Positions 1 to 63,525 of a DNA stretch of 64,000 nt are shown piece after piece; position 1 is the first letter of the stretch; every line of letters begins with the position of its first letter. The notes beneath the pieces are model-generated. The model ran no database searches. It was not told the origin of the DNA and worked only from the letters and a program-made list of their open reading frames with translations. Origin of the DNA: Spirochaetia bacterium (GTDB taxonomy: Bacteria > Spirochaetota > Spirochaetia > CADAEX01); the NCBI GenBank assembly GCA_963662795.1, contig OY759746.1:2048001-2112000 (forward strand). Direction: 5' to 3'. The translations under genes were made by a program, and so were the position numbers.

Positions 1-221
1 ATAACAGCGGTTCAAGCGCTTCGCTCGGAGTACCTCGCTTGGCCTGCGGCAAACATCGTAGGATTTGAACTACAACTTATAGAAACAAAAAGTTTTAAAA
101 GAAAATAAATAAAAGCTTTGAGTTTTCGATTCATGTTCTACGATGCTTCGCTTAACCGCGGAACGTTATCCACAATGCCCCCCACAAGAGGAAATCGCCC
201 GGACCTCCGGCCGACGGGCGA
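1..221 (+). repeat. Long attC-like composite site (partial), core family I
   Basis: AAC 3-5, GTT 165-167, then arm GTTATCCACAATGCCCCCCAC, AAGA and CGCCCG..CGGGCG hairpin. Confidence 0.85.
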
Positions 222-277
222 GGATATGCAGTATAATATTAAATGTTATATACAATACATTATGAAGGTGTATAAGA

Positions 278-1375
278 GTGAGAAAATTAATTATTATTGG
301 AAATGGTTTTGATCTTTCACATGGTTTTGAGACTAGCTATAAGTCATTTTTGCTTTATTATCTTAATAAAGTACAATTAGAATTCTTTAAGATTCGAGAA
401 AATAACAATGATACAATATATGAGAATCCACTGATTAAGATTAAGACTTCATTAAGTAAAGAAAAAATTATGGAGAGTATAAATAATAAAAAATTATTAG
501 ACTGGTTCCAATTCTATAATGGGATGTCGTATAGTTATCAAATAAAAAAAGGGATTGTCGATGAACAATCAGTTCTTGGTTCAGATAAATATAAAAAAAT
601 AGTTATCTCTATAAAATCAAAACTTTTTGATAAAATATTTGATAAAGTGTCTTTGAATTGGGTAGATATTGAAAATGAATATTTTTCTACAATACTAGAA
701 AATATAGACGATAAAGATAGTTTGAATACAATAAATAATGATTTATCATATTTAAAAGAGCATTTAATTACGTATCTAAAAGAAATAACCCAAAATAATG
801 ATAATATAATCGAAAAAGAATATATACGCAAATTCACAGAAAATAATCCGGATGAAATTATGTTTCTAAACTTTAATTATACTAATACTATTGAAAGATA
901 TAAAAACGCAATAGTATTGAATGAAGGTAATAAATTAAATGAAGATAGTATTAAAATAAATTATATACATGGAAGTTTAGATAATTTACATGGAAAACCA
1001 ATTTTTGGTATTGGTGATGAACATCATAAAAGATATGAAGAATTAAAAAATCATGAGAACTGTTTAGCAGCTTTTAGAAATAGTAAATCAATATGTTATT
1101 TAAAGAATGGTAATTATAAAGATTTACAATATTTTTTAGGGAAATATTATGATGTTGAAATATATGGCCATTCTTGTGGATTGTCAGATCGAACACTATT
1201 GAAATATATATTTCAAAATAAAAATTGTATAAAAATTAGAATATTTCATTACAGGGGAGAAGAAGATTATTCAAATAAAACTATAGAAATATTACGTCAT
1301 TTTGATGATCCACAAATATTTAGAGATAAGGTAGAAACATATAATCCTGGTTACTCTATGAATCTAAAGAATTGA
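278..1375 (+). CDS. abiH: AbiH-family abortive infection protein
   Basis: N-terminal LIIIGNGFDLSHG, plus FLNFNYT, YIHG and YGHSCGLSD motifs typical of AbiH/SIR2-like proteins. Confidence 0.8.
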   Translation: MRKLIIIGNGFDLSHGFETSYKSFLLYYLNKVQLEFFKIRENNNDTIYENPLIKIKTSLSKEKIMESINNKKLLDWFQFYNGMSYSYQIKKGIVDEQSVLGSDKYKKIVISIKSKLFDKIFDKVSLNWVDIENEYFSTILENIDDKDSLNTINNDLSYLKEHLITYLKEITQNNDNIIEKEYIRKFTENNPDEIMFLNFNYTNTIERYKNAIVLNEGNKLNEDSIKINYIHGSLDNLHGKPIFGIGDEHHKRYEELKNHENCLAAFRNSKSICYLKNGNYKDLQYFLGKYYDVEIYGHSCGLSDRTLLKYIFQNKNCIKIRIFHYRGEEDYSNKTIEILRHFDDPQIFRDKVETYNPGYSMNLKN

Positions 1376-1415
1376 AATAGTGTACAGGTAGAATAATTAC
1401 CTGACAGGTTAATGC

Positions 1416-1688
1416 GTCTGGCCTTGGCTCCGCCGTTCGGCCTGGACAAGAAGTGGGGGCACTGGTGGATAACAGCGGTTAAAGCGCTTCGCTCGGATTA
1501 CCTCGCTTGGCCTTCGGCAAACATCGCAGGATTTGAACCACAACTGTATATAGCAACAAGTTTTCAAAAGATAGAAAATACAACTATGTGTTTGTTATTC
1601 TTAATCTACGATGCTTCGCTTAACCGCAGGACGTTATCCACAATGCCCCCACAAGATGCAATCGCCCGGACCTCCGGCCGACGGGCGA
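1416..1688 (+). repeat. Long attC-like composite site, core family I
   Basis: AAC 1471-1473, GTT 1633-1635, flanking arms and hairpins. Confidence 0.88.
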
Positions 1689-1767
1689 GGAATAAGAGAG
1701 TAAATATTTTAATATAGAAAAGCCATGTAATTTAAAATTATTTCCCAAAAAAAAGAAAAAGAAATAT

Positions 1768-1796
1768 TTGACATAATATATATCATGGTATATATT
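1768..1796 (+). promoter_or_regulatory. Putative sigma70 promoter of vapBC with overlapping palindromic operator
   Basis: TTGACA-17 nt-TATATT; inverted repeat ATAATATATA..TATATATTAT. Confidence 0.6.
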
Positions 1797-1814
1797 ATCT
1801 ATAGAGGTAATATT

Positions 1815-2045
1815 ATGAATACAGCTAAATTATTTCAGAATGGTCGATCTCAGGCTGTTCGTCTGCCTAAAGAATTTCAATTTAGTGGAGAAGAGGTTTT
1901 TATACAAAAACATGGAGACGCTGTACTTTTAATTCCTCATGAAAAAGCCTGGGAAGTATTTATGGAAGGTCTTTTAGGTTTCTCAGATGATTTTATGAAA
2001 GATGGTAGGGATCAAGGTGTAAACCAAGAAAGAGAAAGCTTCTAA
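1815..2045 (+). CDS. vapB: AbrB/MazE-type antitoxin VapB
   Basis: [19 protein letters not shown] motif; ATG 1815 follows AGAGG; overlaps toxin start. Confidence 0.9.
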
Positions 2046-2446
2046 TGTACCTTCTTGACACTAATATTTGCATTTATGCAATTAATAGAAAGCCAGAGAA
2101 TGTTCTGGAGGCAATAAAAGAAAAATCTAAAAATGGAATATATATTTCAGCACTTACTGTTGCAGAATTAGAGTATGGAGTGGAAAATAGTAAACAAATA
2201 GAAAAAAACCGAATAGCTTTGTTGAAATTTATTTCAATTTTTAATATTTTAAATTTTGATGATTCAGATGCTATTCCTTATGGGAAATTAAAATCAAAAC
2301 TCAAGAAAGATGGAAAAATAATTGGACCAATAGATATGCTACTTGCAGCACAAGCGATAAGTAAAGATATGATATTTGTTACAAATAATGTTGGTGAATT
2401 TGCAAGAATTGAAGGTTTGAAAATTGAAGACTGGACAAAATATTAA
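2045..2446 (+). CDS. vapC: PIN-domain toxin VapC
   Basis: YLLDTNICI, DMLLAAQA and VTNNVGEF motifs. Confidence 0.92.
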   Translation: MYLLDTNICIYAINRKPENVLEAIKEKSKNGIYISALTVAELEYGVENSKQIEKNRIALLKFISIFNILNFDDSDAIPYGKLKSKLKKDGKIIGPIDMLLAAQAISKDMIFVTNNVGEFARIEGLKIEDWTKY

Positions 2447-2502
2447 GAATTATATTAAAAATATTTTATCAAATTAATTAAAATAGAAGAAAAAGAATCT
2501 AA

Positions 2503-2700
2503 GTCCGACCTTGGCTTCTCCATACGGCCTGAACAAGAAGGGGACGTACAACTGCAAACAGCAATTAATTCGCTACGTTCCCTTCGGTCGCTTGAACTTA
2601 ACTAAAATTCGCAGTTGAAAAGAATAAAAGAATTAAGCAAATTTTAAAAAATACAACAATTATCTGCGATGTTTAGTTTACCAACTATCGTTAAGTGGCA
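2503..2700 (+). repeat. Degenerate long attC-like site next to the recombinase 3' end
   Basis: Decayed left hairpin, arm GGGGACGTACAACTGCAAAC, AAC 2557-2559, GTT 2690-2692; right arm and hairpin missing. Confidence 0.6.
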
Positions 2701-3775: not shown

Positions 3776-4048
3776 GTCCGGCCTTGGCTTCCAGCCGTGC
3801 GGCCTGGACAAGAAGTGGGGGCACTGGTGGATAACAGAGGATAAAGCGCTACGCTCGGAGTACCTCGCTTGGCCTGCGGCACACATCGTAGGATTTGAAC
3901 TTCAACATCTAGAAACAACCAGTTTTGAAAGAATAATAAAACAGCTTTGAATATCAATGCTTATCTTACGATGCGTCGCTTATCCTCGGGACGTTATCCA
4001 CAATGCCCCCACAAGAGAACACCGCCCGGACCTCCGGCCGACGGGCGA
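3776..4048 (+). repeat. Long attC-like composite site, core family II
   Basis: AAC 3833-3835, GTT 3993-3995. Confidence 0.88.
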
Positions 4049-4124
4049 GGAGAAGAAGCAGATAAATGATTGATGAATATTCGGAAAAGGATTATTTTGA
4101 AAATATACATAGTAGGAGAAAAAT

Positions 4125-4796
4125 GTGAATAAAAAAGAAAATGAATTATTTGAAGGATGTAAATCAGGGAATATCGAAATAGTAAAAAAAGCTTTAACAA
4201 GTGGAATTTTATCACCAAAAGCAAATGTAAATGTAAAAAATGAAAATGGAGTTACTCCTTTGATGATCGCAGCGCAGAATGGATTTTTAGAAATTGTAAA
4301 TATATTAATTACAAACGAAGCAAGTATTAATGAAAGTAGCAAGGGTGAAATGACAGCGCTCAAAATGGCTGCTTACAATGGAAATGTTGATGTTACCAAA
4401 TTATTGATAGAAAAAGGAGCCACTGGATTTAATAAAATATTGAAAACGGAATTTAAGAATTTTACAGCAAATGCAAAGCATGAATTACTGCAAGTTATAA
4501 ATATAATAAACCAAAAAATATCATCGAAAGATGCTATGCAACATATATTTAATATTGGTTTTAGATTTGATTCACAAATGAAAGGATTATTTGCTGATAA
4601 AAAATGTTATGAAGATGGAATATTTTATATGAGTGAAAATGGACTTTTAGCTCTTAAAAGAGGAGCACAAGGTGAAATAATAGCTATTGATTATATTCAA
4701 ATAAGTAATAACTTTAAAAATAGAATAACATTAATAAAACCAGTTGATGACGAACATGGAGAGATTTTATTCAATGATATAATGGAAAGCTTATAA
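4125..4796 (+). CDS. Ankyrin repeat protein
   Basis: GVTPLMIAAQNGFLEIVNIL and TALKMAAYNGNVDVTKLL repeats. Confidence 0.85.
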   Translation: MNKKENELFEGCKSGNIEIVKKALTSGILSPKANVNVKNENGVTPLMIAAQNGFLEIVNILITNEASINESSKGEMTALKMAAYNGNVDVTKLLIEKGATGFNKILKTEFKNFTANAKHELLQVINIINQKISSKDAMQHIFNIGFRFDSQMKGLFADKKCYEDGIFYMSENGLLALKRGAQGEIIAIDYIQISNNFKNRITLIKPVDDEHGEILFNDIMESL

Positions 4797-4847
4797 AATA
4801 GTTAAAAAAATTAAAATTAAACTTTTAAGTTTTAAATTGGAAAGTAA

Positions 4848-5120
4848 GTCCGGCCTTGGCTTCCAGCCGTACGGCCTGGACAAGAAGTGGGGGCACTGGT
4901 GGATAACAGCGGTTAAAGCGCTACGCTCGGAGTACCTCGCTTGGCCTGCAGCATATTTTGCTGTCATTTAAAAAGAGCGATTAATATATAATTCTTCTCT
5001 GGTTTCGAGAAAAAGTCAGAAGTGTTTTAAATGTTAACTGCAAAACATCGCTTAACCGCGGGACGTTATCCACAATGCCCCCACAAGATGCGATCGCCCG
5101 GACCTCCGGCCGACGGGCGA
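4848..5120 (+). repeat. Long attC-like composite site, core family I
   Basis: AAC 4905-4907, GTT 5065-5067. Confidence 0.88.
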
Positions 5121-5192
5121 GGAAATATGCATAATCAAATATTAGAGATAAATCATTTTTAACTGTACTCAATAGGAATAAATATTTAAAAT

Positions 5193-6467
5193 CATAGGTG
5201 TCCAAAACAAGGACTATTAATTGCCTGAAATCCCAACTATAATGAATTAAGCTTGGACGGCTAATTCTTTACAGGAAAAGGAAATCAGGCAATGAGTTAC
5301 AATAATACCATTTTAAAACAAATTCTACAAATAATTCCGAGACATGAATTTGAAAAATCTGTAAAAAAACATAAAGGGGACTTTGCTTCCAAAGGTTTTA
5401 CCTGTTGGCAGCATTTTGTCTCCATGCTCTTTGCACAACTTTCAGGACAGACCGGGTTAAGAGGCATTGAAAACTCTTTTGAATCAATCAGTAACCACCT
5501 TTATCATATGGGTGTAAAAAAGGTAAAACGCTCTACATTATCTTACGCAAATAATAATAGAAGCTGTGAAGTTTATGAAAATGTTTTCACTGATCTTCTT
5601 GATAAGATATTATCCATGAAGAGAGCGCATAAACATAAATTTAAAAATCCTCTTTACAGTGTTGATGCATCAACTATTGACTTGTGTTTAAATCTCTTTC
5701 CATGGGCAAATTTCAGAAAATATAAAGGCGGAATAAAACTTAATGTAAAACTTGACCATAGTGGATATATTCCAGCTTTTGTATCAGTTACAACTGCAAA
5801 AACACATGAAGTCAATTCCTTGAAAAAAATGGCTTTCAACAAAGGCGATGTCATCACGTTTGATCGTGGTTATACTGACTTTAAATTATTCGCAAATTAT
5901 TGTAATACCGGTATTTATTTTGTTACCAGGTTAAAAAAGAATGCTGATTATAAAATTGTCCAGAGAAAAGATACCTCCTCCTTTAAAAATATTACATCTG
6001 ATCAGATCATAGAAATGAAAGGATTTTACACCAGTAAAAAATGCCCGTTAAAATTAAGACGAATCAGAAGCAGAGATCCTGAAACCGGTAAATATATTGT
6101 AATTCTTACCAATAATTTCCTTTGGTCTCCAACAACAATTGCTGCTGTTTACAAAGACAGATGGCAGATTGAAATATTTTTTAAAACTATCAAACAGAAC
6201 CTCAAGATCAAGAAATTCTTTGGTACTTCCAGAAATGCTGTAATGACACAAATCTGGATTGCCCTAATTGCTTTTCTGTTACTTCAGTTCCTTAAAATGT
6301 TTTCATGTAGAAAATGGACTCATTTTTCACTGATGAAATTGATTCCTGTAATACTGACATCAAGAAAAGATATCTGGACTGTTCTCAATAAACCGCCTTC
6401 AGAACAGACTAAAAAAACTAGTTTCAATCTTCAACTGGAGCTGTTATGATTGTTTTGGACACCTATG
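5193..6467 (+). mobile_element. IS4-family insertion sequence, copy 1 (1275 bp)
   Basis: 18-bp terminal IR CATAGGTGTCCAAAACAA; 9-bp target duplication ATTTAAAAT. Confidence 0.93.
5292..6449 (+). CDS. IS4-family DDE transposase
   Basis: VDASTID, FDRGY and YKDRWQIEIFFK (YREK-like) motifs. Confidence 0.93.
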   Translation: MSYNNTILKQILQIIPRHEFEKSVKKHKGDFASKGFTCWQHFVSMLFAQLSGQTGLRGIENSFESISNHLYHMGVKKVKRSTLSYANNNRSCEVYENVFTDLLDKILSMKRAHKHKFKNPLYSVDASTIDLCLNLFPWANFRKYKGGIKLNVKLDHSGYIPAFVSVTTAKTHEVNSLKKMAFNKGDVITFDRGYTDFKLFANYCNTGIYFVTRLKKNADYKIVQRKDTSSFKNITSDQIIEMKGFYTSKKCPLKLRRIRSRDPETGKYIVILTNNFLWSPTTIAAVYKDRWQIEIFFKTIKQNLKIKKFFGTSRNAVMTQIWIALIAFLLLQFLKMFSCRKWTHFSLMKLIPVILTSRKDIWTVLNKPPSEQTKKTSFNLQLELL

Positions 6468-6577
6468 ATTTAAAATAATTATTAAAATACTTAAATATTA
6501 TAGAAAGAGAGATTGATTAATGACTTTTAAACAGAAAGATTTTTTAAAAACCTATGAAATATCTAGTAAAGTAATTG

Positions 6578-8886: not shown

Positions 8887-8934
8887 AGAAAATATTCAAA
8901 CCAAAACGATTATAAAAATAAAGGAAGTTGAATA

Positions 8935-55294: not shown

Positions 55295-55684
55295 ATGAAG
55301 ATTGCAGAAAAACTAAAAGAAAAATCTAAAAAAATAAAAACCCAGCTTTTAACAGTTTATTATGCATATAAAAATCCGGAAATAAAGCTTTTGCCGAGAA
55401 TTATTATTGGGATTGCGATAGCTTATGCATTAAGTCCAATAGATATAATTCCAGATTTTATTCCTGTAATAGGGTATTTAGATGATTTAATAATAATTCC
55501 TGCATTACTTAGTTTAGCAATAAAAATGATTCCAAAAGAAATAATGGAAGAATCAAGGAAAAGAGCAGAGGATGGATCAATAAAACTAAAACATAATTGG
55601 ACGCTCGCAGTAATATTTATTTTAATATGGATTTATTTGATAGTTATAATTACTAAAATATTGCTAAAATTTATAAATCGTTAA
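55295..55684 (+). CDS. YkvA/DUF1232-family membrane protein
   Basis: YALSPIDIIPDFIPVIGYLDD motif. Confidence 0.9.
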   Translation: MKIAEKLKEKSKKIKTQLLTVYYAYKNPEIKLLPRIIIGIAIAYALSPIDIIPDFIPVIGYLDDLIIIPALLSLAIKMIPKEIMEESRKRAEDGSIKLKHNWTLAVIFILIWIYLIVIITKILLKFINR

Positions 55685-55700
55685 TAAGAAAGGATAAAAA

Positions 55701-55994
55701 GTCCAGACCTTGCCTCCGGCCTATCGGTCAGGACAAGACGCGAAGGTACTGCAAATAACAGCGATTATTTCGCTGCGCTCCCGATGGTCGCTTGGGCTCC
55801 TGCCAGATGAGCTGGCAGATCGCCATATTTTGTTTTAATAAAACTGGAACAACATGTATTCTATGCTTTTTAAGTTTGAAAAAATTTAAATAAAAGTATT
55901 TTAGAGTTTAGCCACAAAACATCGCATAATCGCGAGACGTTATAAGCAATGTTCCCGCAAGAGGAAATCGCCCGGACCTCCGGCCGACGGGCGA
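55701..55994 (+). repeat. Long attC-like composite site, core family III
   Basis: AAC 55757-55759, GTT 55939-55941. Confidence 0.86.
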
Positions 55995-56095
55995 GGAAAT
56001 AAAAATTGCTGTATGATATAATTTATGTACGAGATAAATAATTTTCTTATCATCTTATTGTACTACTGACGCCTTCGGCGTAAAAGAGATAAAAA

Positions 56096-57034
56096 ATGAA
56101 TATTAAATTAAGTGAAAAATTCCATAGGGTTATAATTTCATCTCCAAACTTGTTAACTAAGAAGTATAAATACAAAAATGTCTTTCAATTACTACCACCA
56201 AATAAAAAATGGTATAGAACAGATTTTGTTCAAATTAATTATCCGTTAATATTAGAATTTAATAGCTCTTTTCAAAGAGAATATAATTATAAAAATGAAG
56301 TAAATACAAAGAAAAAAGCTGCTCTTGATTTAATTAATGAGTTTGATACTAGTACATTTAACTTTAAAAAAGAGTTGATCTATTTATTGACAGTATTTAG
56401 TTTTTGCTTTTTTCAGGATAATATCAATCTTGGCAAACATAATCGCGCTTGGTATGGGGAAAAATATTTTATTTCTGATTTTCAAACGCGAAACATTGAT
56501 CAAGTAACCAAAGATGAAATTTATAAGTGTTTTGACGAAAACAAACTGATGGGTTATGAAATTAAATTTCCAATGATTATTGGAGATTTGTTGGATCAAT
56601 ATTTTCTGTTTTCTGGTGAAATACTAGATGTTACTCGTAGAGCAATATTATTGTTCTATAAGTCATTTGAAATAGCACCCTATTCATATAGTATGAGCCT
56701 TGTATCAATGATTTCTGCTATTGAGGCGATTATTCGATTTGAAAATAGTGATATTGAAAATGAAATTTGTAAAGAATGTAAAAATATCAAATATAGAATT
56801 ACAAAACAGTTTAATGATTTCCTAATTAAATATTCAGGTGAAAACAATAAAAGGAAAAAAAAGAAATATATTAACTATCTATATGATTTGCGTAGTAAAG
56901 TTGTACATAATGGGTTTTTGTTTTATACCGATTACTCATTTGATTCAGAAGATAATCTTCTTGATATTAGACTAGAAAACATAAGGTATTTTTTAATACA
57001 TTGTTTTATGAATTGGATTATCTTAAAAGAATAG
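56096..57034 (+). CDS. HEPN (ApeA-like) domain protein
   Basis: ISAIEAI, CKEC and LYDLRSKVVHNG (Rx4H). Confidence 0.7.
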   Translation: MNIKLSEKFHRVIISSPNLLTKKYKYKNVFQLLPPNKKWYRTDFVQINYPLILEFNSSFQREYNYKNEVNTKKKAALDLINEFDTSTFNFKKELIYLLTVFSFCFFQDNINLGKHNRAWYGEKYFISDFQTRNIDQVTKDEIYKCFDENKLMGYEIKFPMIIGDLLDQYFLFSGEILDVTRRAILLFYKSFEIAPYSYSMSLVSMISAIEAIIRFENSDIENEICKECKNIKYRITKQFNDFLIKYSGENNKRKKKKYINYLYDLRSKVVHNGFLFYTDYSFDSEDNLLDIRLENIRYFLIHCFMNWIILKE

Positions 57035-57079
57035 TCGAACAACTTGTACAGGTAGAGTAATTGTCTGACAATTAAAGAA

Positions 57080-57334
57080 GTCCGGCCTTGGCTCCGCCGT
57101 ACGGCCTGGACAAGAAGCGGGAACACTGCTTATAACAGCGAATGGCCGGTTTCGGCTGTTTCTGAAAAAACCAGCCTCAACCCAAATTGCCGGAATAAAT
57201 AGTGGTACAGATTGATGAATACAAAATAAGCTTAAAGGGTAACAAATAACAACGGCAACTTCGGTCATTCGCGGGACGTTATAGGCAATACCTCCGCGAA
57301 GAGAAGATCGCCCGGACCTCCGGTCAACGGGCGA
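57080..57334 (+). repeat. Long attC-like composite site, core family IV variant
   Basis: AAC 57134-57136, GTT 57278-57280. Confidence 0.88.
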
Positions 57335-57388
57335 GGAAGTATCTTTTTATGATAACTGATAATTGATAATGTAAATAAAGATAATATT

Positions 57389-58090
57389 ATGACAAGAACA
57401 GAAAGACTTTTAGAAATCATAGAAATATTAAGGCGAAGCAAATTTGCTGTGACTGCAAATGAACTTTCCAAAAGATTTGAAATAAGCATTAGATCAATAT
57501 ACCGTGATATTTCAATATTGCAGTCACAAGGTGTTCCAATTGAAGGTGGAACTGGTGTAGGTTATATATTACGTAAAGGATATACCTTACCACCATTAAT
57601 GTTTACTATTGATGAAATAGAGGCACTTATCCTTGGCATAAAATGGGTCTCAGTTTCAACAGATGAAAGCTTATCAATGGCTTCAAAAAACGCCTTAATG
57701 AAAATTAGTACTGTTATCCCTAAAGCTTTAAAAAGTAAATATACAACTACCAGTATTTTAATTAATAATAGATATAAGCCAGTAATTGATAATCAACTAA
57801 TTACTATTATCCGTACTGCAATTAAAGAAAACTGGAAGATACAAATTCAATATAAAAATCACCAAGCTATACAAAGTATTCGTACCATTTGGCCAATTGC
57901 AATCGGGTTTTTTGAAAATGCTCAAATAATAGCTGGTTGGTGTGAAAAAAGATCGGCTTTTAGGCATTTTAGAACAGATAGAATTATCAAATGTGTATTA
58001 ATAAAAGAAAAATATCCCATACCTCAAAAAATGCTATTTGCAAAGTGGAAAGAAAGCGAAAAAATAATACTCGATGATATTGAAATATAA
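57389..58090 (+). CDS. YafY-like HTH-WYL transcriptional regulator
   Basis: RSIYRDI HTH, LPPLMFT and WCEKRSAFRHFRTDRI motifs. Confidence 0.9.
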   Translation: MTRTERLLEIIEILRRSKFAVTANELSKRFEISIRSIYRDISILQSQGVPIEGGTGVGYILRKGYTLPPLMFTIDEIEALILGIKWVSVSTDESLSMASKNALMKISTVIPKALKSKYTTTSILINNRYKPVIDNQLITIIRTAIKENWKIQIQYKNHQAIQSIRTIWPIAIGFFENAQIIAGWCEKRSAFRHFRTDRIIKCVLIKEKYPIPQKMLFAKWKESEKIILDDIEI

Positions 58091-58178
58091 TGGTTACTGA
58101 CAAAAACTGACATGTTTCCTTGTTAATATTAATATTAAACAGAGTTGTGTATAAAATATTAGTAAAAGGAGCAGTGCT

Positions 58179-59138
58179 ATGAACAAAATGAAAGCATCAG
58201 TAATCAGAAGATTTGGAGGAGAGAATGAATTAGTAATTGATTATTTACCTATACCAATCATTGATGATAATCAAGTGCTTATTAAATTAGAGTATGCTGG
58301 AGTAGGGGCATGGGACATTTTTGAGCGAGAAGGTGGATATTCAAAAATGCTTGGAATTATACCATCATTCCCTTATATTTTGGGTTCTGAAGGAGCTGGG
58401 ACTGTCATAGAAGTTGGAAAAAATGTGACTAGATTTAAAACCGAAGATAAAGTTTCAGCCGCAGGATTTCTTAATCCCAAAGGTGGTTTTTATGCGGAAT
58501 ATGTTGCAGTAGATGAAGAAGTAGTTTCAAGAATTCCCATTGGTTATAACTTTTGTGAGGCAAGTGTTATATTGGGAGTAGGAATAACTGCATTAAGAGG
58601 ATTAACTGATGTTTTAAAAATAAAAGCAAATGAAAATATTTGTATAGTTGGAGCAAGTGGTGGGATAGGACACATAGCAGTTCAACTAGCAAAAGGTATG
58701 GGTGCAAATATCTGTGCGATTGTGTCCGGAAATGATGGAATTGAATTAGTAAAAAAATACGGTATTGAAATAATTATTGAAAGACAAGAGAGCGATTTAA
58801 TTAATAAAATAAAAAAAATGGGATTTAAATATTTTGATAAAATTCTGCTAACTGCTGGTGGTAATGTGTCTGATAAAATATGTCAAATGGTAGAACCCGG
58901 TGGGTTGGTAGGTTTTCCATCAGGAGTATTTCCAGAACCACAAGAAGGAAAAGATATAATTATTGAAAAATACAATGGAGAACCAGATAGAGATATAATT
59001 AATAGAATAATAAAATTGGTAGAAAAAAATCAAATAAAACCAAATATTCATCGTATTTTTCAATTAAATGAAGCATCGACAGCACATCAATTTATAAAAA
59101 ATCATTACTTGGGAAAAATTGCATTGAAAATATATTGA
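58179..59138 (+). CDS. NADP-dependent oxidoreductase (MDR/quinone reductase family)
   Basis: LGSEGAGTV, GFYAEY and GASGGIG motifs. Confidence 0.88.
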   Translation: MNKMKASVIRRFGGENELVIDYLPIPIIDDNQVLIKLEYAGVGAWDIFEREGGYSKMLGIIPSFPYILGSEGAGTVIEVGKNVTRFKTEDKVSAAGFLNPKGGFYAEYVAVDEEVVSRIPIGYNFCEASVILGVGITALRGLTDVLKIKANENICIVGASGGIGHIAVQLAKGMGANICAIVSGNDGIELVKKYGIEIIIERQESDLINKIKKMGFKYFDKILLTAGGNVSDKICQMVEPGGLVGFPSGVFPEPQEGKDIIIEKYNGEPDRDIINRIIKLVEKNQIKPNIHRIFQLNEASTAHQFIKNHYLGKIALKIY

Positions 59139-59190
59139 TTTTTTTAAAAATAAAAAATAGCTATCAATTAAATTCAATTGTTTAAAGAAA

Positions 59191-59467
59191 GTTCAGCCCT
59201 TGGCGTTGCCGTGCGGGCTGAACAAGACGCGGAGGTACTGCCTATAACAGCGAATGACCGGTTCCGGCTGTTTCTAAGGAAACAGCCTCCACCCAAATTG
59301 CCGAAATAATACATGTTAAGAATAATGGAATAGAGTATAAACTTTTGGAGTGAAAAACACCATCGGCAACTTCGGTCATTCGCGAGACGTTATACGAAAA
59401 ATCGCGCCAAGAGGCTATAATTTCGCCCCTAGGAAACAGGGGAAAAGCCCGGCGTCCTGCCGGGCTT
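59191..59467 (+). repeat. Long attC-like composite site, core family IV
   Basis: AAC 59246-59248, GTT 59389-59391. Confidence 0.86.
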
Positions 59468-59562
59468 AAGAAATGATTTTACAGATATTACACATTAAAA
59501 GTATTGAAAAAATAATAAAAAGTGTGTATAATAAAAGAAAGTAATACACATGGAGAAGAAAT

Positions 59563-59757
59563 ATGCGTACAAATATTGTAATTGATGACATTTTAATGAA
59601 TGAAGCTATAGCATTATCTGGAAATAAAACAAAGAAAGAAACAGTAGAAGAAGCTTTGAAAATATTGATTCAATTTAAGAATCAATCATCAATAAGATCA
59701 TTTAGGGGAAAATTAAAATGGGAAGGTGATCTTGAGAAAATGAGAAAAGACACATGA
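59563..59757 (+). CDS. vapB: VapB antitoxin
   Basis: MRTNIVIDD..RGKLKWEGDL motif. Confidence 0.88.
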   Translation: MRTNIVIDDILMNEAIALSGNKTKKETVEEALKILIQFKNQSSIRSFRGKLKWEGDLEKMRKDT

Positions 59758-60146
59758 TTGTAGCAGATACATCTGTATGGATTGATTATTTCAATGGAGT
59801 CATTGCAGAACATACAGATAGACTTGATTCGGACTTGGAATCGAATAGAATAATCATTGGAGATTTGATAATTGCAGAATTGCTACAGGGTTTTAAAACA
59901 GATAAAGAATATAATTCTGCAAAGAAATTGATTGAAAACCTGGAGTATAGAGATTTTATAGGGAAGGAAATAGCAATAAAAACAGCAGATAATTATAGGT
60001 ATCTTAGGAAAAAAGGGATAACAGTAAGAAAAACAATAGATGTAATAATAGCTACGTTTTGTATAGAGAATAATTATCAGCTTATTCATAATGATAGAGA
60101 TTTTGATGCATTGGAGAAGTATCTAGGTCTTAAAGTAAGAAAATAA
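59754..60146 (+). CDS. vapC: PIN-domain toxin VapC
   Basis: DTSVWIDYF, RKTIDVIIATFC and HNDRDF motifs. Confidence 0.9.
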   Translation: MIVADTSVWIDYFNGVIAEHTDRLDSDLESNRIIIGDLIIAELLQGFKTDKEYNSAKKLIENLEYRDFIGKEIAIKTADNYRYLRKKGITVRKTIDVIIATFCIENNYQLIHNDRDFDALEKYLGLKVRK

Positions 60147-60196
60147 AAAAGAAAAAAATATTAATAATATTTAACTAAAGATACCTTGAAAAGACC

Positions 60197-60466
60197 CACT
60201 TTCGCACGTCCTGTGCTCAAGCGAAGAGGGGCGAAATTAGGAGGAAGACGGCGCGGTTCATCGTATAACAGCGAATGGCCGGTTTCGGCTGTTTCTGAAG
60301 AAACCAGCCTCAACCCAAATTGCCGGAATAAATAGTGGTACAAATTGATGATTACAAAATAAGCTTGAAGGGTAACAAATAACAGCGGCAACTTCGGTCA
60401 TTCGCGGGACGTTATAAGCAATGTTCCCGCAAGAGGAGATCGCCCGGACCTCCGGCCGACGGGCGA
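60197..60466 (+). repeat. Long attC-like composite site, core family IV variant
   Basis: AAC 60267-60269, GTT 60411-60413. Confidence 0.86.
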
Positions 60467-60562
60467 GGACATGCAATTTAATGATTATAATTTTAAATAT
60501 AAAACACTACAAATAAAAATAGTTAATAATGAATATTTTATCGCAAATGTATTGAGATAATC

Positions 60563-61792
60563 ATGAATGACATTAAGTACAAGTATGCTTTAGATGAACA
60601 AAATAATGTAATATCAATATCAAGTATTAATGCAGTTAATTTTAAAAATAATTATATTTGCCCTTCGTGTAATAAAAAGCTAAGGCCCAGAATAGGGAAT
60701 ATTAGAGTACATCATTTTTATCATCCACATAAAAATGATGTATATTCCTGTAGTATTGAAAGTTACTTACATACGATTTCCAAAAAACTACTTTATGAAA
60801 AATTAATAAAATTATTTAATGAAAAAAAATCATATATTGTAAATATTTATAATAAAATTATTGTTTTTGACACAAGCGGCAAAGTTATTAAAACAGAAAT
60901 TAGTAAGGAAAAATCACCTTATGATATTTTAAATAATTCTGTAAAAATATATTTAGAAAAAGTAATTGGAGAATACAAGCCTGATATATTGATTGAATAT
61001 GTAAATATAGAACCACTTTTTCTTGAGATAAAAGTCACGCATAAAAGTTCGATCAAAAAGATAATTAATAATAGAATTATAGAAATAAATATAACTGAAG
61101 AAGCAGATATAAGACGAATACTTAACCACTTAGATGAAAATAAAGACGAATTAATAAATTTTGATAAATATCGTAAAATAATTGAAAAATATATTAGTAC
61201 TGTTTCTGAAATACCTAAGCAAAATGTTACTGAAGAAATAAAAAAGCAAGTAATTAAAATTGAGAGAAAAATCACTTATTCTGAAAAAAAAGAAATATTA
61301 ACTAAAATATGTGAGGATTTTAATAAACATGCTTTAGTACTGTCTGTAAAGTATGTTTTTGATAAAATACTTGGCGGGAATTACAGAGAACGTATTACAA
61401 CAATATTTTTAAGCGATTTTTATAGCAGTATAAAAATTATTGAAAAAGATGCAATATACTGTGAATTAGCAAATATCGATAATAAGAAATTAATTATTGG
61501 TTTTAGTGATTTAAATAAAGAAGTATATAAGAATAATTTATATGTAATACTATATGAAAAAAATACTTTTTATCAAATACTAGATAGTGTAAATGTTATG
61601 AAAAATAATGTTGTTATTGATTTTAACAATTTTAATGATAATTACATTTTTAAAATATCATGCTTTATGCCTAAAGGGCATTATTCATCAATAATTAAAG
61701 AGTTCAAGTATAGTGAATTTATAAAACTTATAAACAAAAATGAAATAGAATTAATAAATATTGAATGCATACGCAAACTACAAAATATATAA
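60563..61792 (+). CDS. CoiA-like Zn-finger / nuclease-domain protein
   Basis: YICPSC..HFYH, ESYLH, KPDIL and LEIKVTH motifs. Confidence 0.7.
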   Translation: MNDIKYKYALDEQNNVISISSINAVNFKNNYICPSCNKKLRPRIGNIRVHHFYHPHKNDVYSCSIESYLHTISKKLLYEKLIKLFNEKKSYIVNIYNKIIVFDTSGKVIKTEISKEKSPYDILNNSVKIYLEKVIGEYKPDILIEYVNIEPLFLEIKVTHKSSIKKIINNRIIEINITEEADIRRILNHLDENKDELINFDKYRKIIEKYISTVSEIPKQNVTEEIKKQVIKIERKITYSEKKEILTKICEDFNKHALVLSVKYVFDKILGGNYRERITTIFLSDFYSSIKIIEKDAIYCELANIDNKKLIIGFSDLNKEVYKNNLYVILYEKNTFYQILDSVNVMKNNVVIDFNNFNDNYIFKISCFMPKGHYSSIIKEFKYSEFIKLINKNEIELINIECIRKLQNI

Positions 61793-61832
61793 AAGGTTAT
61801 ATAGAGCGAGTAATTACTTGATAGTAGTTGGA

Positions 61833-62087
61833 GTCCAGCCTTGGCTTCCAGCCGTGCGGCCTGGACAAGAAGCGGGAACACAGCTTATAACAGCGAATGG
61901 CCGGTTCCGGCTGTTTCTAAGGAAGCAGCCTCCACCCAAATTGCCGAAATAATAAATGTTAAGAATAATGGAATAGAGTATAAACTTTTGAAGTAAAAGA
62001 CACCATCGGCAACTTCGGTCATTAGCGGGACGTTATCCACAATATCATCGCAAGAGGAAATCGCCCGGACCTCCGGCCAACGGGCGA
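61833..62087 (+). repeat. Long attC-like composite site, core family IV
   Basis: AAC 61889-61891, GTT 62032-62034. Confidence 0.88.
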
Positions 62088-62088
62088 A

Positions 62089-62161
62089 GAAAATAGAATC
62101 TGCTGTATATTATACTTTAGACATAACATATATAGTTTACTAGTTATTTAATATATTAGGT
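62089..62161 (+). other. Conserved internal leader ending in attI-like crossover (carrier cassette 5; G mutated to A)
   Basis: TAGTTATTTAATAT-ATTAGGT at 62155. Confidence 0.6.
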
Positions 62162-62189
62162 TCACTTAAAATAAATAAAGCTGGTGGTT

Positions 62190-63179
62190 ATGAAAGCGAG
62201 ATATCAACAGGTATTAGATAAAAGTAAAGCGGCATTATTATCCGCAATTGAGCTTTATAATAAGCCACAGTATCTATATCGTGAAGAATCTTTTGCAATA
62301 TTATGTATAAATGCATATGAATTACTTTTTAAAGCAAAATGGCTTCATCTTCATAATAATAAATTAAACAGCCTATATACTTATGAATATAGAATTACAA
62401 AGAGTGGAAAAAAGTCAAAGAAAAAAACAATAAAAACAACAAGAAGCAATAATCCATTAACCCGCGAAATTAGTTATCTAGCAAATAAACTAATCGAACA
62501 GAAATTTTTAAATGGTATATTATGGGCTAATGTTCAATTACTTTTAGAAATTAGAGATTGTTCAATTCATTATTACAATAAAAATAATGCTTTATTACTA
62601 AAATTACATCAGGTTGCTTTAGCTTCAGTTAAAAATTTTGGAATTTTATTAAGAAACTGGTTTCCTGATGAATTGTCTGATTTTTCTACATCAATATTGC
62701 CAATTGCAATTATGGATAATGTACAGGAGAGTGATATTATTAGTTTAGAAAAAGATGAAGTACAAATAATACAGTTTATCCAAGCATATGAAGAAACCTT
62801 CAATGATGAAGAATCAGAATTTTCAATTTCACTTTCATTATCGTTAAACCTAAAAAAAGCAAAACCTGGTGAAGCCGTGATAGTAAGAATTGGAAATACA
62901 TCAGATATTAAATTACCAACAGTTAGGCTTTCAGATGAGCAAATTAGAGAGAGATATCCAATAACATATAATGAATTGAGTCGGAAATTAAGGTTAAGAT
63001 ATAGTGATTTTAAAATGGACTCTAAGTATCATGAATTGAGAAAGGCAATAACCAATAATAAAAAGTATTGTTATATTAGAGAGCTAGATCCAGGAAATGA
63101 AAAAACTCAAAAAAAACAATTCTATAGTAATGCAATAATTGAATATTTTGACCAAAATTATGAAAAAAAAGGAATCTAA
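62190..63179 (+). CDS. DUF3644-domain protein (nested cargo)
   Basis: LLSAIELYNKP..YREESF..NAYELLFKA and EIRDCSIH motifs. Confidence 0.78.
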   Translation: MKARYQQVLDKSKAALLSAIELYNKPQYLYREESFAILCINAYELLFKAKWLHLHNNKLNSLYTYEYRITKSGKKSKKKTIKTTRSNNPLTREISYLANKLIEQKFLNGILWANVQLLLEIRDCSIHYYNKNNALLLKLHQVALASVKNFGILLRNWFPDELSDFSTSILPIAIMDNVQESDIISLEKDEVQIIQFIQAYEETFNDEESEFSISLSLSLNLKKAKPGEAVIVRIGNTSDIKLPTVRLSDEQIRERYPITYNELSRKLRLRYSDFKMDSKYHELRKAITNNKKYCYIRELDPGNEKTQKKQFYSNAIIEYFDQNYEKKGI

Positions 63180-63229
63180 TAACCTTTCACTGCGTTTGGG
63201 CGCAATTACAGGTTAAGCGAATGTTAAAA
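63174..63229 (+). repeat. Degenerate short attC site
   Basis: ATCTAAT...CAGGTTAA-gcgaat-GTTAAAA; 3' half resembles the sites at 14612 and 45811. Confidence 0.6.
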
Positions 63230-63253
63230 AAAATAAAAATAGAAACGGGGGAA

Positions 63254-63525
63254 GTCCGGCCTTGGCGTTGCCGTGCGGCCTGGACAAGAAGCGATGATAC
63301 TAGTGGATAACAGAGGATACTGCGCTACGCTCGGAGTACCTCGCTTGGCCTGCGGCACACATCGTAGATTTTGAACTAAAACATCTATAAACAACAAATT
63401 TTTGAAGAAAAATACTGCAACCTTGAAATATTAACTCTTAGGCTACGATGCGTCGCTTATCCTCAGGACGTTATCCACAATATCATCGCAAGAGAACGCC
63501 GCCCGGACCTCCGGCCAACGGGCGA
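63254..63525 (+). repeat. Long attC-like composite site, core family II
   Basis: AAC 63309-63311, GTT 63470-63472. Confidence 0.88.

What the first reader, a model, noticed from the sequence alone, without database searches (positions are those of the whole stretch)
165..63472. Every cassette is bracketed by its own pair of complementary ~20-nt terminal arms
Seen: each unit starts GTT-N6-AA-N9 (usually followed by AAGA) and ends N9-C(T/A)[G/T]-N6-AAC. The two arms are reverse complements within one cassette but usually not across a junction. Examples: GTTATGCTC-AA-TACCAGCCGC (19027) with GCGGCTGGTA-CTG-GAGCATAAC (20041); GTTCTCCGA-AA-TACCGCCCC (22608) with GGGGCGGTA-CT-TCGGAGAAC; GTTATATGC (33974) with GCATATAAC versus GTTATAGGC (32612) with GCCTATAAC, a compensatory change. 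I count 14 arm variants and 33 of 34 complete units self-matched. Established: in canonical integrons self-complementarity of cassette ends is limited to about the 7-bp R''/R' boxes. Inference: the outer 9+9-bp helix completes the site only in the excised circle (or by pairing across the whole cassette). It could act as a directionality or identity switch in an undescribed cassette system.
Basis: partly seen in the sequence, partly recalled or inferred. Interest (0 to 1): 0.92.

Follow-up and report, generated by a model that had tools for sequence, protein, structure and literature searches.

The report
Private matching arms on gene cassettes
Each swappable gene cassette in this bacterium's giant integron-like array carries its own pair of about 20-base complementary ends, which probably extend the folded DNA recombination site well beyond the textbook 7-base box.

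Summary
Observation confirmed. In the window, 31 of 33 complete units have self-complementary arms. Across the whole ~332-kb array, 171 of 178 do. That compares with 54 of 172 across junctions and about 11% of random pairs.

There are 43 distinct matched arm pairs, and 13 of 18 stem positions show three or more Watson-Crick pair types. The stem is GTT+N6, then an interruption, then N9. Position 11 is A opposite C in 165 of 168 matched cassettes, which is a T.G wobble on the bottom strand.

The system is integron-like: attC-type hairpins with an L box and a bulged base, and crossover at G|TT. Its adjacent recombinase lacks the IntI-specific insertion.

Canonical IntI arrays in three spirochaete genomes self-match for only 7-8 nt. 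Insert-less arrays from Ignavibacteriota and Gemmatimonadota MAGs show the same extended arms.

Predicted folding gives the complete site in the excised circle, or between same-class neighbours in the array.

I found no printed description. This scan has noted the same feature on other DNA. There is no experimental or read-level proof.

The parts
165..1473 (+). cassette; arms GTTATCCAC-AA-TGCCCCCCA / GTGGGGGCA-CTG-GTGGATAAC
   Evidence: inner 9/9, outer 7/9 because of a 1-nt slip
1633..2559 (+). cassette with UNMATCHED arms (5' ATCCAC class, 3' ...ACTGCAAAC); followed by a degenerate junction and a reversed recombinase gene
   Evidence: inner 4/9, outer 5/9; sequence
3993..4907 (+). cassette; arms GTTATCCAC-AA-TGCCCCCAC / GTGGGGGCA-CTG-GTGGATAAC
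   Evidence: 9/9 + 9/9
5065..8670 (+). cassette, same arm class, holds IS copies
   Evidence: 9/9 + 9/9; ORFs
8830..10053 (+). cassette; arms GTTATCGGC-AA-TGGCTGGGC / GCCCAGCCA-CA-GCCGATAAC
   Evidence: 9/9 + 9/9
10232..11624 (+). cassette; arms GTTATCCAC-AA-TATCATCGC / GCGATGATA-CTG-GTGGATAAC
   Evidence: 9/9 + 9/9
11803..13157 (+). cassette with UNMATCHED arms (5' CTCCGA class, 3' GTGGAT class)
   Evidence: inner 6/9, outer 5/9
13315..14753 (+). cassette; TATCATCGC arm class
   Evidence: 9/9 + 9/9
14893..16537 (+). cassette; arms GTTAGCAGC-AA-TACGTCCCC / GGGGACGTA-CA-GCTGCTAAC
   Evidence: 9/9 + 9/9
16697..18886 (+). cassette; arms GTTATAAGC-AA-TGTTCCCGC / ACGGGAACA-CA-GCTTATAAC
   Evidence: 9/9 + 8/9
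   Evidence: 9/9 + 9/9
20203..21400 (+). cassette; ATCGGC/TGGCTGGGC arm class
   Evidence: 9/9 + 9/9
21541..22451 (+). cassette; arms GTTATTTGA-AA-TGCCCCGTA / TACGGGGCA-CT-TCAAATAAC
   Evidence: 9/9 + 9/9
   Evidence: 9/9 + 9/9
24150..30013 (+). long cassette (5.9 kb), TATCATCGC arm class
   Evidence: 9/9 + 9/9
30153..31442 (+). cassette; arms GTTAGTAGC-AA-TACCCCGCC / GGCGGGGTA-CT-GCTACTAAC (3' end missed by the HMM)
   Evidence: found with a pattern search allowing at most 1 mismatch
31621..32433 (+). cassette; TGCCCCCAC arm class
   Evidence: 9/9 + 9/9
   Evidence: 9/9 + 9/9
   Evidence: 9/9 + 9/9
35959..38212 (+). cassette; ATAGGC arm class
   Evidence: 9/9 + 9/9
38372..40722 (+). cassette; arms GTTATCTGC-AA-AATCGCCCA / TGGGCGATT-CA-GCAGATAAC
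   Evidence: 9/9 + 9/9
42021..46004 (+). cassette, TATCATCGC arm class; holds an inner short attC-like site at about 45811-45912
   Evidence: 9/9 + 9/9; sequence
46160..47552 (+). cassette; TATCATCGC arm class (duplicate of 10232-11624)
   Evidence: 9/9 + 9/9; duplicate pairs
47731..49282 (+). cassette; TATCATCGC arm class
   Evidence: 9/9 + 9/9
49443..50956 (+). cassette; TATCATCGC arm class
   Evidence: 9/9 + 9/9
51135..52357 (+). cassette; ATCGGC arm class
   Evidence: 9/9 + 9/9
52498..53513 (+). cassette; arms GTTATTTGC-AA-TACCTTCGC / GCGAAGGTA-CT-GCAAATAAC
   Evidence: 9/9 + 9/9
53673..55759 (+). cassette; ATTTGC arm class
   Evidence: 9/9 + 9/9
55939..57136 (+). cassette; ATAAGC arm class
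   Evidence: 9/9 + 9/9
57278..59248 (+). cassette; ATAGGC arm class with a CT interruption
   Evidence: 9/9 + 9/9
59389..60269 (+). cassette; arms GTTATACGA-AA-AATCGCGCC / GGCGCGGTT-CA-TCGTATAAC (3' end missed by the HMM)
   Evidence: inner 9/9, outer 8/9 by pattern search
60411..61891 (+). cassette; ATAAGC arm class
   Evidence: 9/9 + 9/9
62032..63311 (+). cassette; TATCATCGC arm class with a CTA interruption
   Evidence: 9/9 + 9/9
1474..1632 (+). example of the apical junction module ('Block B'): attC-like core between AAC and GTT. L''/L' pairing with one bulged base, a 1-nt versus 5-nt unpaired spacer, and a long AT-rich loop. One such module sits at every junction, 130-180 nt long.
   Evidence: alignment; L''/L' covariation; lengths
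1416..1452 (+). example of the GC-rich hairpin at the cassette 3' end ('Block A'), just outside the 3' arm
1657..1692 (+). example of the GC-rich hairpin at the cassette 5' end ('Block C'), just outside the 5' arm

Best explanation
The arms are the outer part of the cassette recombination hairpin in an integron-like system run by an IntI-related tyrosine recombinase that lacks the IntI-specific insertion.

LAYOUT OF ONE JUNCTION.
- 3' arm: N9, then C-T-(G), then N6-AAC.
- Apical module of 130-180 nt, with an L''/L' box carrying one bulged base.
- 5' arm of the next cassette: GTT-N6, then AA, then N9.

Strand exchange falls at or next to G|TT. Everything after GTT therefore travels with the downstream gene, and everything before AAC travels with the upstream gene.

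CONSEQUENCE. The two halves of the 9 + 9 bp outer stem meet when a cassette is excised as a circle. They also meet in the array when neighbouring cassettes are of the same arm class. The site then has a stem about 20 bp long beyond the cleavage triplet.

On the bottom strand this stem is continuous except for a fixed T.G wobble at position 11, with or without one bulged C. On the top strand the same place is an A.C mismatch or a 2x3 internal loop.

INFERRED ROLES.
(i) The extension nucleates and stabilises the recombinogenic fold of a very long site in a 30% GC genome.
(ii) The fixed wobble marks which strand is used.
(iii) Junctions between unlike neighbours are poor substrates. That locks most of the array, leaves circles integration-competent, and leaves same-class runs able to exchange.

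SHOWN: the anatomy, the covariation, the breakpoints of duplicated cassettes, the missing insertion, the contrast with canonical arrays, and recurrence in other phyla.

INFERRED: that the stem forms in vivo as DNA, which strand reacts, and the effect on recombination.
For: COVARIATION.
- 171 of 178 cassettes self-match, against 54 of 172 junctions and about 11% of random pairs.
- There are 43 distinct matched arm pairs. 13 of 18 positions have at least 3 Watson-Crick pair types. There are 31 mismatches in 3,024 pairs.

ANATOMY.
- Position 11 is A opposite C in 165 of 168.
- The arm duplex is more stable on the bottom strand in 163 of 178.
- Attc-like core: L''/L' covary across at least 6 classes with a bulged base on the 5' half.

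CROSSOVER. In 34 duplicate cassette pairs, similarity ends 2-9 nt upstream of GTT in 23 pairs. In the other 11 it runs 12-76 nt into the upstream module.

RECOMBINASE.
- A 339-aa recombinase gene ends about 150 nt before the first 5' arm, in the same orientation as the cassettes.
- It scores 200 bits on TIGR02249, whose cut-off is 265, in two stretches.
- 24 of its residues span what is 66 residues in IntI4 (2a3v).

PREDICTED FOLDING, bottom strand.
- Circle junction, n=160: mean dG -42.5; P(AAC:GTT closing pair) > 0.5 in 97%.
- Unlike neighbours, n=117: mean dG -28.7; 54%.
- Like neighbours, n=43: mean dG -41.5; 98%.

CONTROL. In 60 cassettes of 3 genomes with a full IntI, the self-complementary run is mostly 7-8 nt (maximum 11), and the score is at most 10 in all 60.

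OTHER INSERT-LESS ARRAYS.
- Ignavibacteriota MAG: 7 of 9 intervals score at least 15, against 1 of 10 junctions.
- Gemmatimonadaceae MAG: self scores are 8-15 and junction scores are at most 8, with A.C at position 11.
- Their recombinases score 224-251 bits on TIGR02249, also in two stretches.

CLUSTERING. There are 47 adjacent same-class pairs, against 16.2 +/- 3.6 expected. Only 3 of the 47 are of near-equal length.

REPLICATION. The bottom strand is the leading-strand template. Passages of PMC5371416 report the same for 25 of 30 sedentary integrons.
Against: - No circle junction, excision joint or polymorphism was seen. The laid runs are contigs that break at the repeats.
- All folding figures are predictions for naked single strands.
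- The bottom-versus-top energy difference for the arms is small: means of -21.2 and -20.7.
- In the related genome G011 only 5 of 15 intervals reach score 12. In G012 it is 2 of 4. HMMs trained on this genome probably miss sites there, but that was not shown.
- Strict Watson-Crick pairing without wobble tolerance also fits a copying or repair process rather than selection on recombination.
- The apical module does not stay with its cassette in 16 of 34 duplicate pairs. Canonical integron chemistry does not predict this.
- The canonical control comes from one spirochaete family, two genera. Attempts at three more IntI loci gave no usable arrays.
- Arm classes are few and are shared between genera, which hints at descent from common scaffolds.
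Confidence: 0.6

Rival explanations
1. The arms are an inherited by-product with no role in recombination. Cassettes are built on a small set of palindromic scaffolds (arm plus end hairpins) that are split around a gene. The complementarity persists by descent, or by mismatch repair or gene conversion.
For: - A few arm classes dominate: the top 6 classes cover 118 of 178 cassettes.
- The same classes recur in other genera whose recombinase is only 46% identical.
- The end hairpins co-vary with arm class (by eye).
- The same ends surround unrelated genes.
- Mismatches in the stems show no wobble preference.
Against: - A crossover at G|TT gives a newly excised cassette the 5' arm of its upstream neighbour. 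Matching would therefore decay without selection or physical pairing.
- There are 43 distinct matched pairs with two-sided changes.
- The same architecture, with the same position-11 A.C, occurs in unrelated sequences from other phyla.
- Repair-based maintenance would itself require the arms to pair in vivo.
Confidence: 0.15
2. The arms pair across the whole cassette inside the array, with single-stranded DNA looping out about 1.4 kb. This brings the two crossover points of one cassette together, so the arms serve excision rather than the circle.
For:
- Median cassette length is 1,393 nt, of the order of single-stranded gaps at a replication fork (my own knowledge).
- It gives every cassette a private way to be excised whatever its neighbours are.
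Against: - Tyrosine recombinases synapse two duplex sites (established knowledge), and one arm duplex is a single site.
- The L-box halves that would flank such a stem come from two different apical modules, which assort almost independently of the arms, so the site would usually be incomplete.
- Cassettes up to 5.9 kb keep perfect arms.
Confidence: 0.12
3. The arms act in RNA. A stem formed by the two ends of each cassette transcript directs processing (for example by RNase III) or stabilises individual messages cut from a long transcript.
For: - The arms bracket the coding part.
- Most ORFs are on the + strand.
- A 20-bp stem with an internal loop resembles processing stems (my own knowledge).
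Against: - The fixed interruption is A opposite C on the sense strand, which is unpaired in RNA, in 165 of 168 cassettes.
- There is no G.U tolerance: 3 G.T among 3,024 pairs.
- The stem begins exactly at the GTT/AAC recombination triplets.
- No Rfam family was found in the window.
- No RNA data were examined.
Confidence: 0.05
4. Each cassette is an invertible segment: its own inverted repeats are recombined in double-stranded DNA by the Xer-like enzyme.
For: - The arms are 20-nt inverted repeats flanking a segment.
- The recombinase family gives weak matches to tyrosine invertase models.
Against: - All array sites are in one orientation.
- Among 85 interior-to-interior matches of at least 200 nt, the 16 inverted ones are IS-like insertions inside cassettes. 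The one other case examined is internal to two cassettes with different arms.
- The asymmetric interruption always has AA on the 5' side (177 of 178).
Confidence: 0.03

Closest known systems
Sedentary chromosomal integrons (IntI, attI, attC cassettes), especially the Treponema-type 'inverted' integrons where intI and cassettes point the same way
   Same: - A one-directional array of mostly promoter-less cassettes.
- A recombinase gene and an insertion point at one end.
- Folded sites with an R box (AAC/GTT), an unpaired spacer, and an L box with a bulged base.
- A cassette boundary at G|TT.
- Toxin-antitoxin-like gene pairs among the cassettes (by eye).
- The bottom strand lies on the leading-strand template.
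   Different: - The recombinase lacks the IntI-specific insertion.
- The stem continues for about 20 bp beyond the cleavage triplet into the cassette, with a fixed A.C/T.G position. Canonical spirochaete arrays stop at 7-8 nt.
- Conserved sequence reaches about 65 nt past the crossover.
- The apical module is exchanged independently of the cassette.
CALINs (clusters of attC sites lacking an integron integrase), as defined for IntegronFinder (passages of PMC9024848)
   Same: Standard tools that require the insertion-specific integrase profile would probably label this array a CALIN.
   Different: A related recombinase gene sits at the head of the array here, and in the other phyla examined. It is therefore not a degraded, orphan array. 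I did not run IntegronFinder.
XerCD-mediated integration of CTX-type phage single-stranded DNA through a folded hairpin (recalled from memory, not read here)
   Same: A Xer-type enzyme without the IntI insertion acts on a folded single strand.
   Different: That case is a single phage attachment site at dif, not an array of cassettes, and it has no private arm pairs.
pdif modules of Acinetobacter plasmids (recalled from memory, not read here)
   Same: Gene modules bounded by Xer-type sites that can be reshuffled.
   Different: Those sites are 28-bp double-stranded dif-like sites in alternating orientation. Here the sites are 130-180-nt hairpins, all in one orientation.

Membership tests
Integron (IntI / attI / attC) | Integrase carries the IntI-specific additional domain (I2 helix region) | tested here: not met
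   TIGR02249 scores 200 bits against a cut-off of 265, in two stretches that skip model positions 173-229. Against IntI4 (2a3v), 24 query residues span 66 chain residues.
Integron (IntI / attI / attC) | Cassette sites fold as hairpins with R''/R' (AAC/GTT), an unpaired spacer, and L''/L' with an extrahelical base | tested here: met
   L''/L' covariation across classes, with one extra base on the 5' half. Predicted folds are, and the closing-pair probability.
Integron (IntI / attI / attC) | Crossover at G|TT of R', so the first bases of a cassette match its own R'' | tested here: met
   Left breakpoints of 34 duplicate pairs fall at GRGAC|GTT. The inner N6 matches the cassette's own 3' end rather than the neighbour's. 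Resolution is limited by the conserved GRGAC-GTTAT.
Integron (IntI / attI / attC) | Each attC stays attached to its own cassette | tested here: not met
   In 16 of 34 duplicate pairs similarity ends 2-5 nt after AAC. In 10 pairs it runs through the whole module to the next GTT, and in 8 it ends inside the module. Module class is only weakly tied to the upstream arm (z 2.7) or the downstream arm (z 2.1).
Integron (IntI / attI / attC) | Self-complementarity of cassette ends limited to the roughly 7-bp R box | tested here: not met
   Here it is 9 + 9 bp. In canonical arrays of three genomes it is 7-8 nt. The R-box consensus 5'-RYYYAAC-3' is given in passages of PMC7439510.
Integron (IntI / attI / attC) | Bottom strand is the reactive strand; resolution is by replication | not testable with these tools
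   Only indirect hints: the T.G versus A.C asymmetry and the orientation relative to replication.
Xer/dif-type double-stranded site systems (dif, pdif modules) | A 28-30 bp double-stranded core with two 11-bp arms around a 6-8 bp spacer at module borders | tested here: not met
   The borders are separated by 130-180 nt modules. No short-spacer core is seen at the junctions.
Invertons / shufflon-type invertible segments | The same segment is found in both orientations between fixed inverted repeats | tested here: not met
   No arm-bounded inversion was found among 85 interior matches of at least 200 nt. This covers one genome only.
Transposons / MITEs with terminal inverted repeats | One TIR sequence per element family, recognised by its transposase; target-site duplication | tested here: not met
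   There are 35 different 5' arms in one array. The units abut a fixed hairpin module rather than duplicated target sequence.

The most novel reading that the evidence does not exclude
Insert-less, IntI-related recombinases run a widespread sister system to integrons, seen here in Spirochaetota, Ignavibacteriota, Gemmatimonadota and Flavobacteriaceae. In it the recombination hairpin reaches about 20 bp past the cleavage point into the cassette, and it carries a fixed T.G wobble 11 bases out. That wobble takes over the strand-marking job done in classical integrons by the extrahelical bases and the I2 domain.

Private arms sort cassettes into compatibility classes. Without I2 to block it, the second strand exchange also takes place on hairpins, so apical modules are swapped between junctions.

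If true, this would be a living answer to the 'which came first, attC or the I2 domain' paradox raised in PMC4792948 (passages).
Probability: 0.3. Interest if true: 0.9.

Novelty: new variant of a known kind. Interest (0 to 1): 0.77.

Why it matters
Integron recombination is explained by a 7-bp R box, extrahelical bases, and the integrase domain that reads them.

Here a very large array (about 190 sites over about 332 kb), and arrays in other phyla, keep attC-like hairpins next to a recombinase that lacks that domain. They add a long cassette-private stem with one fixed strand-asymmetric position.

If the stem is functional, it would have several consequences.
- It gives a simple rule for which cassettes can move and which strand reacts.
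- It may explain how huge arrays stay stable.
- It offers a natural test of how hairpin recombination evolved before, or without, the I2 domain.
- It suggests programmable, class-specific structure-based recombination sites.

It also means that current integron finders, which use a 7-bp R-box model and an insertion-specific integrase profile, probably miss or mislabel these systems.

Tried and rejected
- Rfam gathering scan of the window: 0 matches. ARAGORN: 0 tRNAs, so the tRNA-like look of part of the junction module was dropped.

- Read-level proof. The look-up of sequencing runs found 4 holders. Read laying on 8500-18400 returned only Logan contigs that end at the repeats. The listed 'joints' join repeat copies and are assembly effects. 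No circle junction or excision joint could be called. Run X1, a groundwater metagenome, covers only repeats and part of one cassette, and no conclusion was drawn from it.

- A generic attC finder (AAC...GTT plus L-box pairing) recovered only 4 of the HMM-placed sites in the window, plus false hits. It was abandoned in favour of per-array HMMs or patterns.

- Single-sequence nhmmer on the Ignavibacteriota locus missed sites and produced a false mismatch. It was replaced by checked coordinates.

- Further canonical controls (G228, G275, G127) had no repeat families usable to place attC sites. The canonical control therefore rests on three genomes of one family.

- Arrays in Flavobacteriaceae (L088, L101) were read by eye only. 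The inner stem is 9-10 nt, followed by a CA/TCG interruption and a T-run. No count was made.

- The inverton reading was tested and rejected.

- The RNA reading was not tested with RNA data.

- Supplementary files of papers were not seen. Supplementary attC alignments of PMC4889954, PMC8352920 or PMC9024848 could hold long-stem sites that I cannot exclude.

- Structure prediction, complex prediction, build_rna_model and the protein-atlas search were not used.

Full report
WHAT IS THERE

The window is G000:C1:2048001-2112000, from a single-contig 3.93-Mb genome of about 30% GC. I did not verify that name.

The window is filled with a composite repeat of about 270 nt. A profile of the repeat finds 225 matches in the genome. 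All but a few lie in one block, 1,849,024-2,180,723, all on the + strand. That is about 190 junctions over about 332 kb.

Each junction has three parts.
- (A) The 3' end of a cassette: a GC-rich hairpin, then AAGAAG, then N9, then C-T-(G), then N6-AAC.
- (B) An apical module of 130-180 nt. It begins A-G(A/C)GG... and ends ...GRGAC.
- (C) The 5' end of the next cassette: GTT-N6-AA-N9, usually AAGA, then a second GC-rich hairpin.

THE OBSERVATION

I placed the AAC and GTT triplets with two sub-profiles and scored the reverse complement of each 5' arm against 3' arms.

Of 178 cassettes with both ends, 171 score at least 12 against their own 3' arm. Across the junction 54 of 172 do, and about 11% of all non-self pairs do.

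The inner helix (GTT+N6) is perfect in 153 of 178. The outer N9 helix is perfect in 157 of 178. There are 43 distinct matched arm pairs. 13 of the 18 stem positions carry three or more Watson-Crick pair types. Only 31 of 3,024 pairs are mismatched.

In the window itself 31 of 33 complete units match, with 15 different 5' arms.

WHAT KIND OF SITE

Module B is an attC-like core. Its two ends pair (L''/L'), and they covary between at least six classes (for example GAGGATAA/TTATCCTC, GCGGTTAA/TTAACCGC, GCGATTAT/ATAATCGC). One extra base sits on the 5' half. The spacer next to the AAC/GTT triplets is unpaired, 1 nt on one side and 5 nt on the other.

Predicted DNA folds of a cassette's own 3' end, module B and its own 5' end give one long structure: end hairpin, 9-bp outer helix, small interruption, 9-10-bp R helix, spacer, L helix, loop.

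WHERE THE CROSSOVER IS

There are 34 pairs of duplicated cassettes in different places of the array. On the left, similarity ends 2-9 nt upstream of GTT in 23 pairs. This short residue is accounted for by the conserved GRGAC. In the other 11 pairs it runs further (12-76 nt), into the upstream module. I read this as chance sharing of the same module class; that was not checked.

Both arms therefore belong to the cassette, as expected for exchange at G|TT.

On the right there are three outcomes.
- Similarity runs through the whole module B to the next GTT in 10 pairs (160-214 nt; one further pair runs on for 405 nt, past the next GTT).
- It stops 2-5 nt after AAC in 16 pairs.
- It stops inside the module in 7 pairs (15-74 nt).

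Module class is only weakly linked to the arm class on either side: z 2.7 upstream and z 2.1 downstream. Yet L'' and L' of one module almost always match; the listing shows one clear chimera.

So module B behaves as a third, independently exchanged unit. One explanation is that both strand exchanges take place on two folded hairpins, which would swap their apical parts. Homologous gene conversion is the alternative. Neither was tested.

THE ENZYME

A 339-aa tyrosine recombinase gene (G000 1846782-1847801, + strand) ends about 150 nt before the first 5' arm (GTTATACGA-AA-AACCGCGCC). That arm's partner lies about 0.9 kb downstream.

The protein scores 200 bits on the integron-integrase model TIGR02249, whose cut-off is 265. 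The match is in two stretches that skip model positions 173-229. It scores 214.5 bits on the XerA-type model, whose cut-off is 220.

Its best solved relative is IntI4 of Vibrio (2a3v). However, 24 of its residues stand where IntI4 has 66, in the region of the IntI-specific insertion. It aligns without a break to an archaeal XerA-like protein.

The defining feature of IntI is therefore absent.

Close relatives of the protein keep a conserved N-terminal domain of about 50 residues. Relatives at 42-47% identity are common and are often named 'site-specific tyrosine recombinase/integron integrase'.

A frameshifted gene that does match the full IntI model lies far away, at 412 kb.

A FIXED ASYMMETRIC POSITION

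The interruption between the two helices is AA on the 5' arm in 177 of 178 cassettes. On the 3' arm it is C-T, C-T-G or C-A. The base opposite A11 is C in 165 of 168 matched cassettes.

On the top strand this is an A.C mismatch inside a 2x2 or 2x3 loop. On the bottom strand it is a T.G wobble, so the helix is continuous apart from at most one bulged base.

The arm duplex is predicted to be more stable on the bottom strand in 163 of 178 cassettes. The mean difference is only about 0.5 kcal/mol.

CONTROLS AND RELATIVES

Full IntI genes (over the TIGR02249 cut-off) occur in 29 of 301 sampled genomes of the phylum. In the arrays next to three of them (two genera of one family), 60 cassettes show a self-complementary run from GTT of mostly 7-8 nt, with a maximum of 11. 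Across junctions the run is 5-6 nt. The arm score is at most 10 in all 60. This confirms the textbook picture; the R-box consensus appears in passages of PMC7439510.

Arrays next to insert-less relatives show the extended arms.
- An Ignavibacteriota MAG: 7 of 9 intervals score at least 15, against 1 of 10 junctions. The layout is 9-10 bp, then an interruption (A against C, or CA against CGA), then about 9-12 bp.
- A Gemmatimonadaceae MAG: 10 bp, then A.C at position 11, then 5-6 bp. Self scores are 8-15 and junction scores are at most 8.
- Their recombinases score 224-251 bits on TIGR02249, again in two stretches.
- Two Flavobacteriaceae arrays, read by eye only, show 9-10-nt inner stems followed by a CA/TCG interruption.

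Relatives in the same family are mixed. G014 gives 4 of 4. G012 gives 2 of 4, with two more at score 11. G011 gives only 5 of 15, plus 1 of 2 in a second region. Some arm classes are identical across genera. Profiles trained on this genome probably miss sites in G011, but I did not show that, so G011 counts partly against generality.

CONSEQUENCES PREDICTED BY FOLDING

The figures below are for the bottom strand.
- Reconstituted circle junction, n=160: mean energy -42.5 kcal/mol. The AAC:GTT closing pair has probability over 0.5 in 97%.
- In-array junctions between unlike neighbours, n=117: -28.7 kcal/mol and 54%.
- In-array junctions between like neighbours, n=43: -41.5 kcal/mol and 98%.

Same-class cassettes are clustered. 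There are 47 adjacent same-class pairs, against 16.2 +/- 3.6 in shuffles (maximum 30 in 5,000). Only 3 of the 47 are of near-equal length, so tandem duplication does not explain the clustering.

GC skew puts the origin near 1.38 Mb and the terminus near 3.42 Mb. The bottom strand of the array is therefore the leading-strand template. Passages of PMC5371416 report the same for 25 of 30 sedentary integrons.

HOW IT MOST LIKELY WORKS

The arms are the outer part of the recombination hairpin, split by the crossover. They rejoin in the excised circle, or between same-class neighbours.

My inference is that they do three things:
- they stabilise the recombinogenic fold;
- they mark the reactive strand through the fixed wobble;
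- they make junctions between unlike neighbours poor substrates, which would help a very long array persist.

Confidence is 0.6.

The rivals are: inherited scaffolds without function (0.15); pairing across the cassette within the array (0.12); an RNA role (0.05); invertible segments (0.03). The last was tested and found wanting.

COMPARISON WITH WHAT IS KNOWN

It works like an integron. It fails three membership tests: the integrase insertion, attC staying with its cassette, and a 7-bp limit to end complementarity.

Full-text searches and passages of eight papers gave no description of private extended arms, or of attC-type arrays run by insert-less recombinases. [quoted passage not shown] Supplements were closed.

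PMC4792948 (passages) states that the I2 domain reads the extrahelical bases and blocks the second cleavage. It also poses the question of which came first, the domain or the sites. The present system bears on that question.

Earlier notes of this scan report the same extended ends, and an A.C at position 11, in Bacteroidota phages, CPR bacteria and a Dehalococcoidia-like genome. I reached the position-11 result before reading those notes. They are not independent evidence.

LIMITS

There is no experimental or read-level evidence. The folds are predictions.

Noticed in passing
all junctions, e.g. window 1474-1632, 3836-3992, 8671-8829: The apical hairpin module between AAC and GTT assorts almost independently of the cassettes on either side. 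Identical cassettes are followed by different module classes, while the two ends of each module stay matched. This suggests module swapping, perhaps by a second strand exchange on the hairpins.
   Followed up: partly
whole array, G000 1.85-2.18 Mb (order string): Cassettes of the same arm class sit next to each other far more often than chance: 47 adjacent pairs against 16 expected. Their cargo differs. There are runs of 6-8 of one class.
   Followed up: partly
window 2560-3835, ORF 2713-3597 (-): A second Xer-like tyrosine recombinase gene (294 aa, reversed) sits at a degenerate junction, right after one of the two cassettes with unmatched arms. It may be an inserted element.
   Followed up: no
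window 5292-6449, 6677-7834, 24727-25884 (-), 38686-39843: Near-identical copies of a 385-aa ORF (IS-like, about 1.28 kb, 99-100% identical) are inserted inside cassettes in both orientations.
   Followed up: partly
window 42021-46004 (inner site about 45811-45912): This cassette carries a long leader ending in ...TAATAG|GTTAGGCGG and a short, unrelated attC-like site just before its outer 3' end. It matches the 'nested carrier cassette' layout noted by other first readers.
   Followed up: partly
G000 412371-413302 (outside the window; L001/L002): A frameshifted gene matches the full integron-integrase model, including the insertion region, far from the array. Stray copies of the composite site lie at about 450.5 kb, 1.26 Mb, 2.34 Mb (-) and 2.49 Mb (-).
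   Followed up: no
window, each cassette end, e.g. 1416-1452 and 1657-1692: Conserved GC-rich hairpins lie just outside both arms. The 3' one shows A/T against G/C changes on both sides of its stem. Their function is unknown. The 5' one is followed by an AGGA-rich stretch.
   Followed up: no
L088 (Algibacter), L101 (Flavobacterium), L072 (Oceanirhabdus, Clostridia): Related recombinase genes in Flavobacteriaceae are followed by attC-like arrays. The Clostridia locus has a different pattern: repeated units of about 300-700 nt on both sides of the gene.
   Followed up: partly
run X1 laid on window 8500-18400: A groundwater metagenome holds the junction repeats and part of one cassette (about 11719-12664) at 90-99% identity, so related arrays exist in that kind of sample.
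   Followed up: no
G011 region (L048-L051), e.g. interval 41669-42562 of the reversed string: Some cassettes in the related genus have chimeric arms: the outer N9 matches but the inner N6 does not, or the reverse. This hints at exchange at the interruption between the two helices.
   Followed up: no
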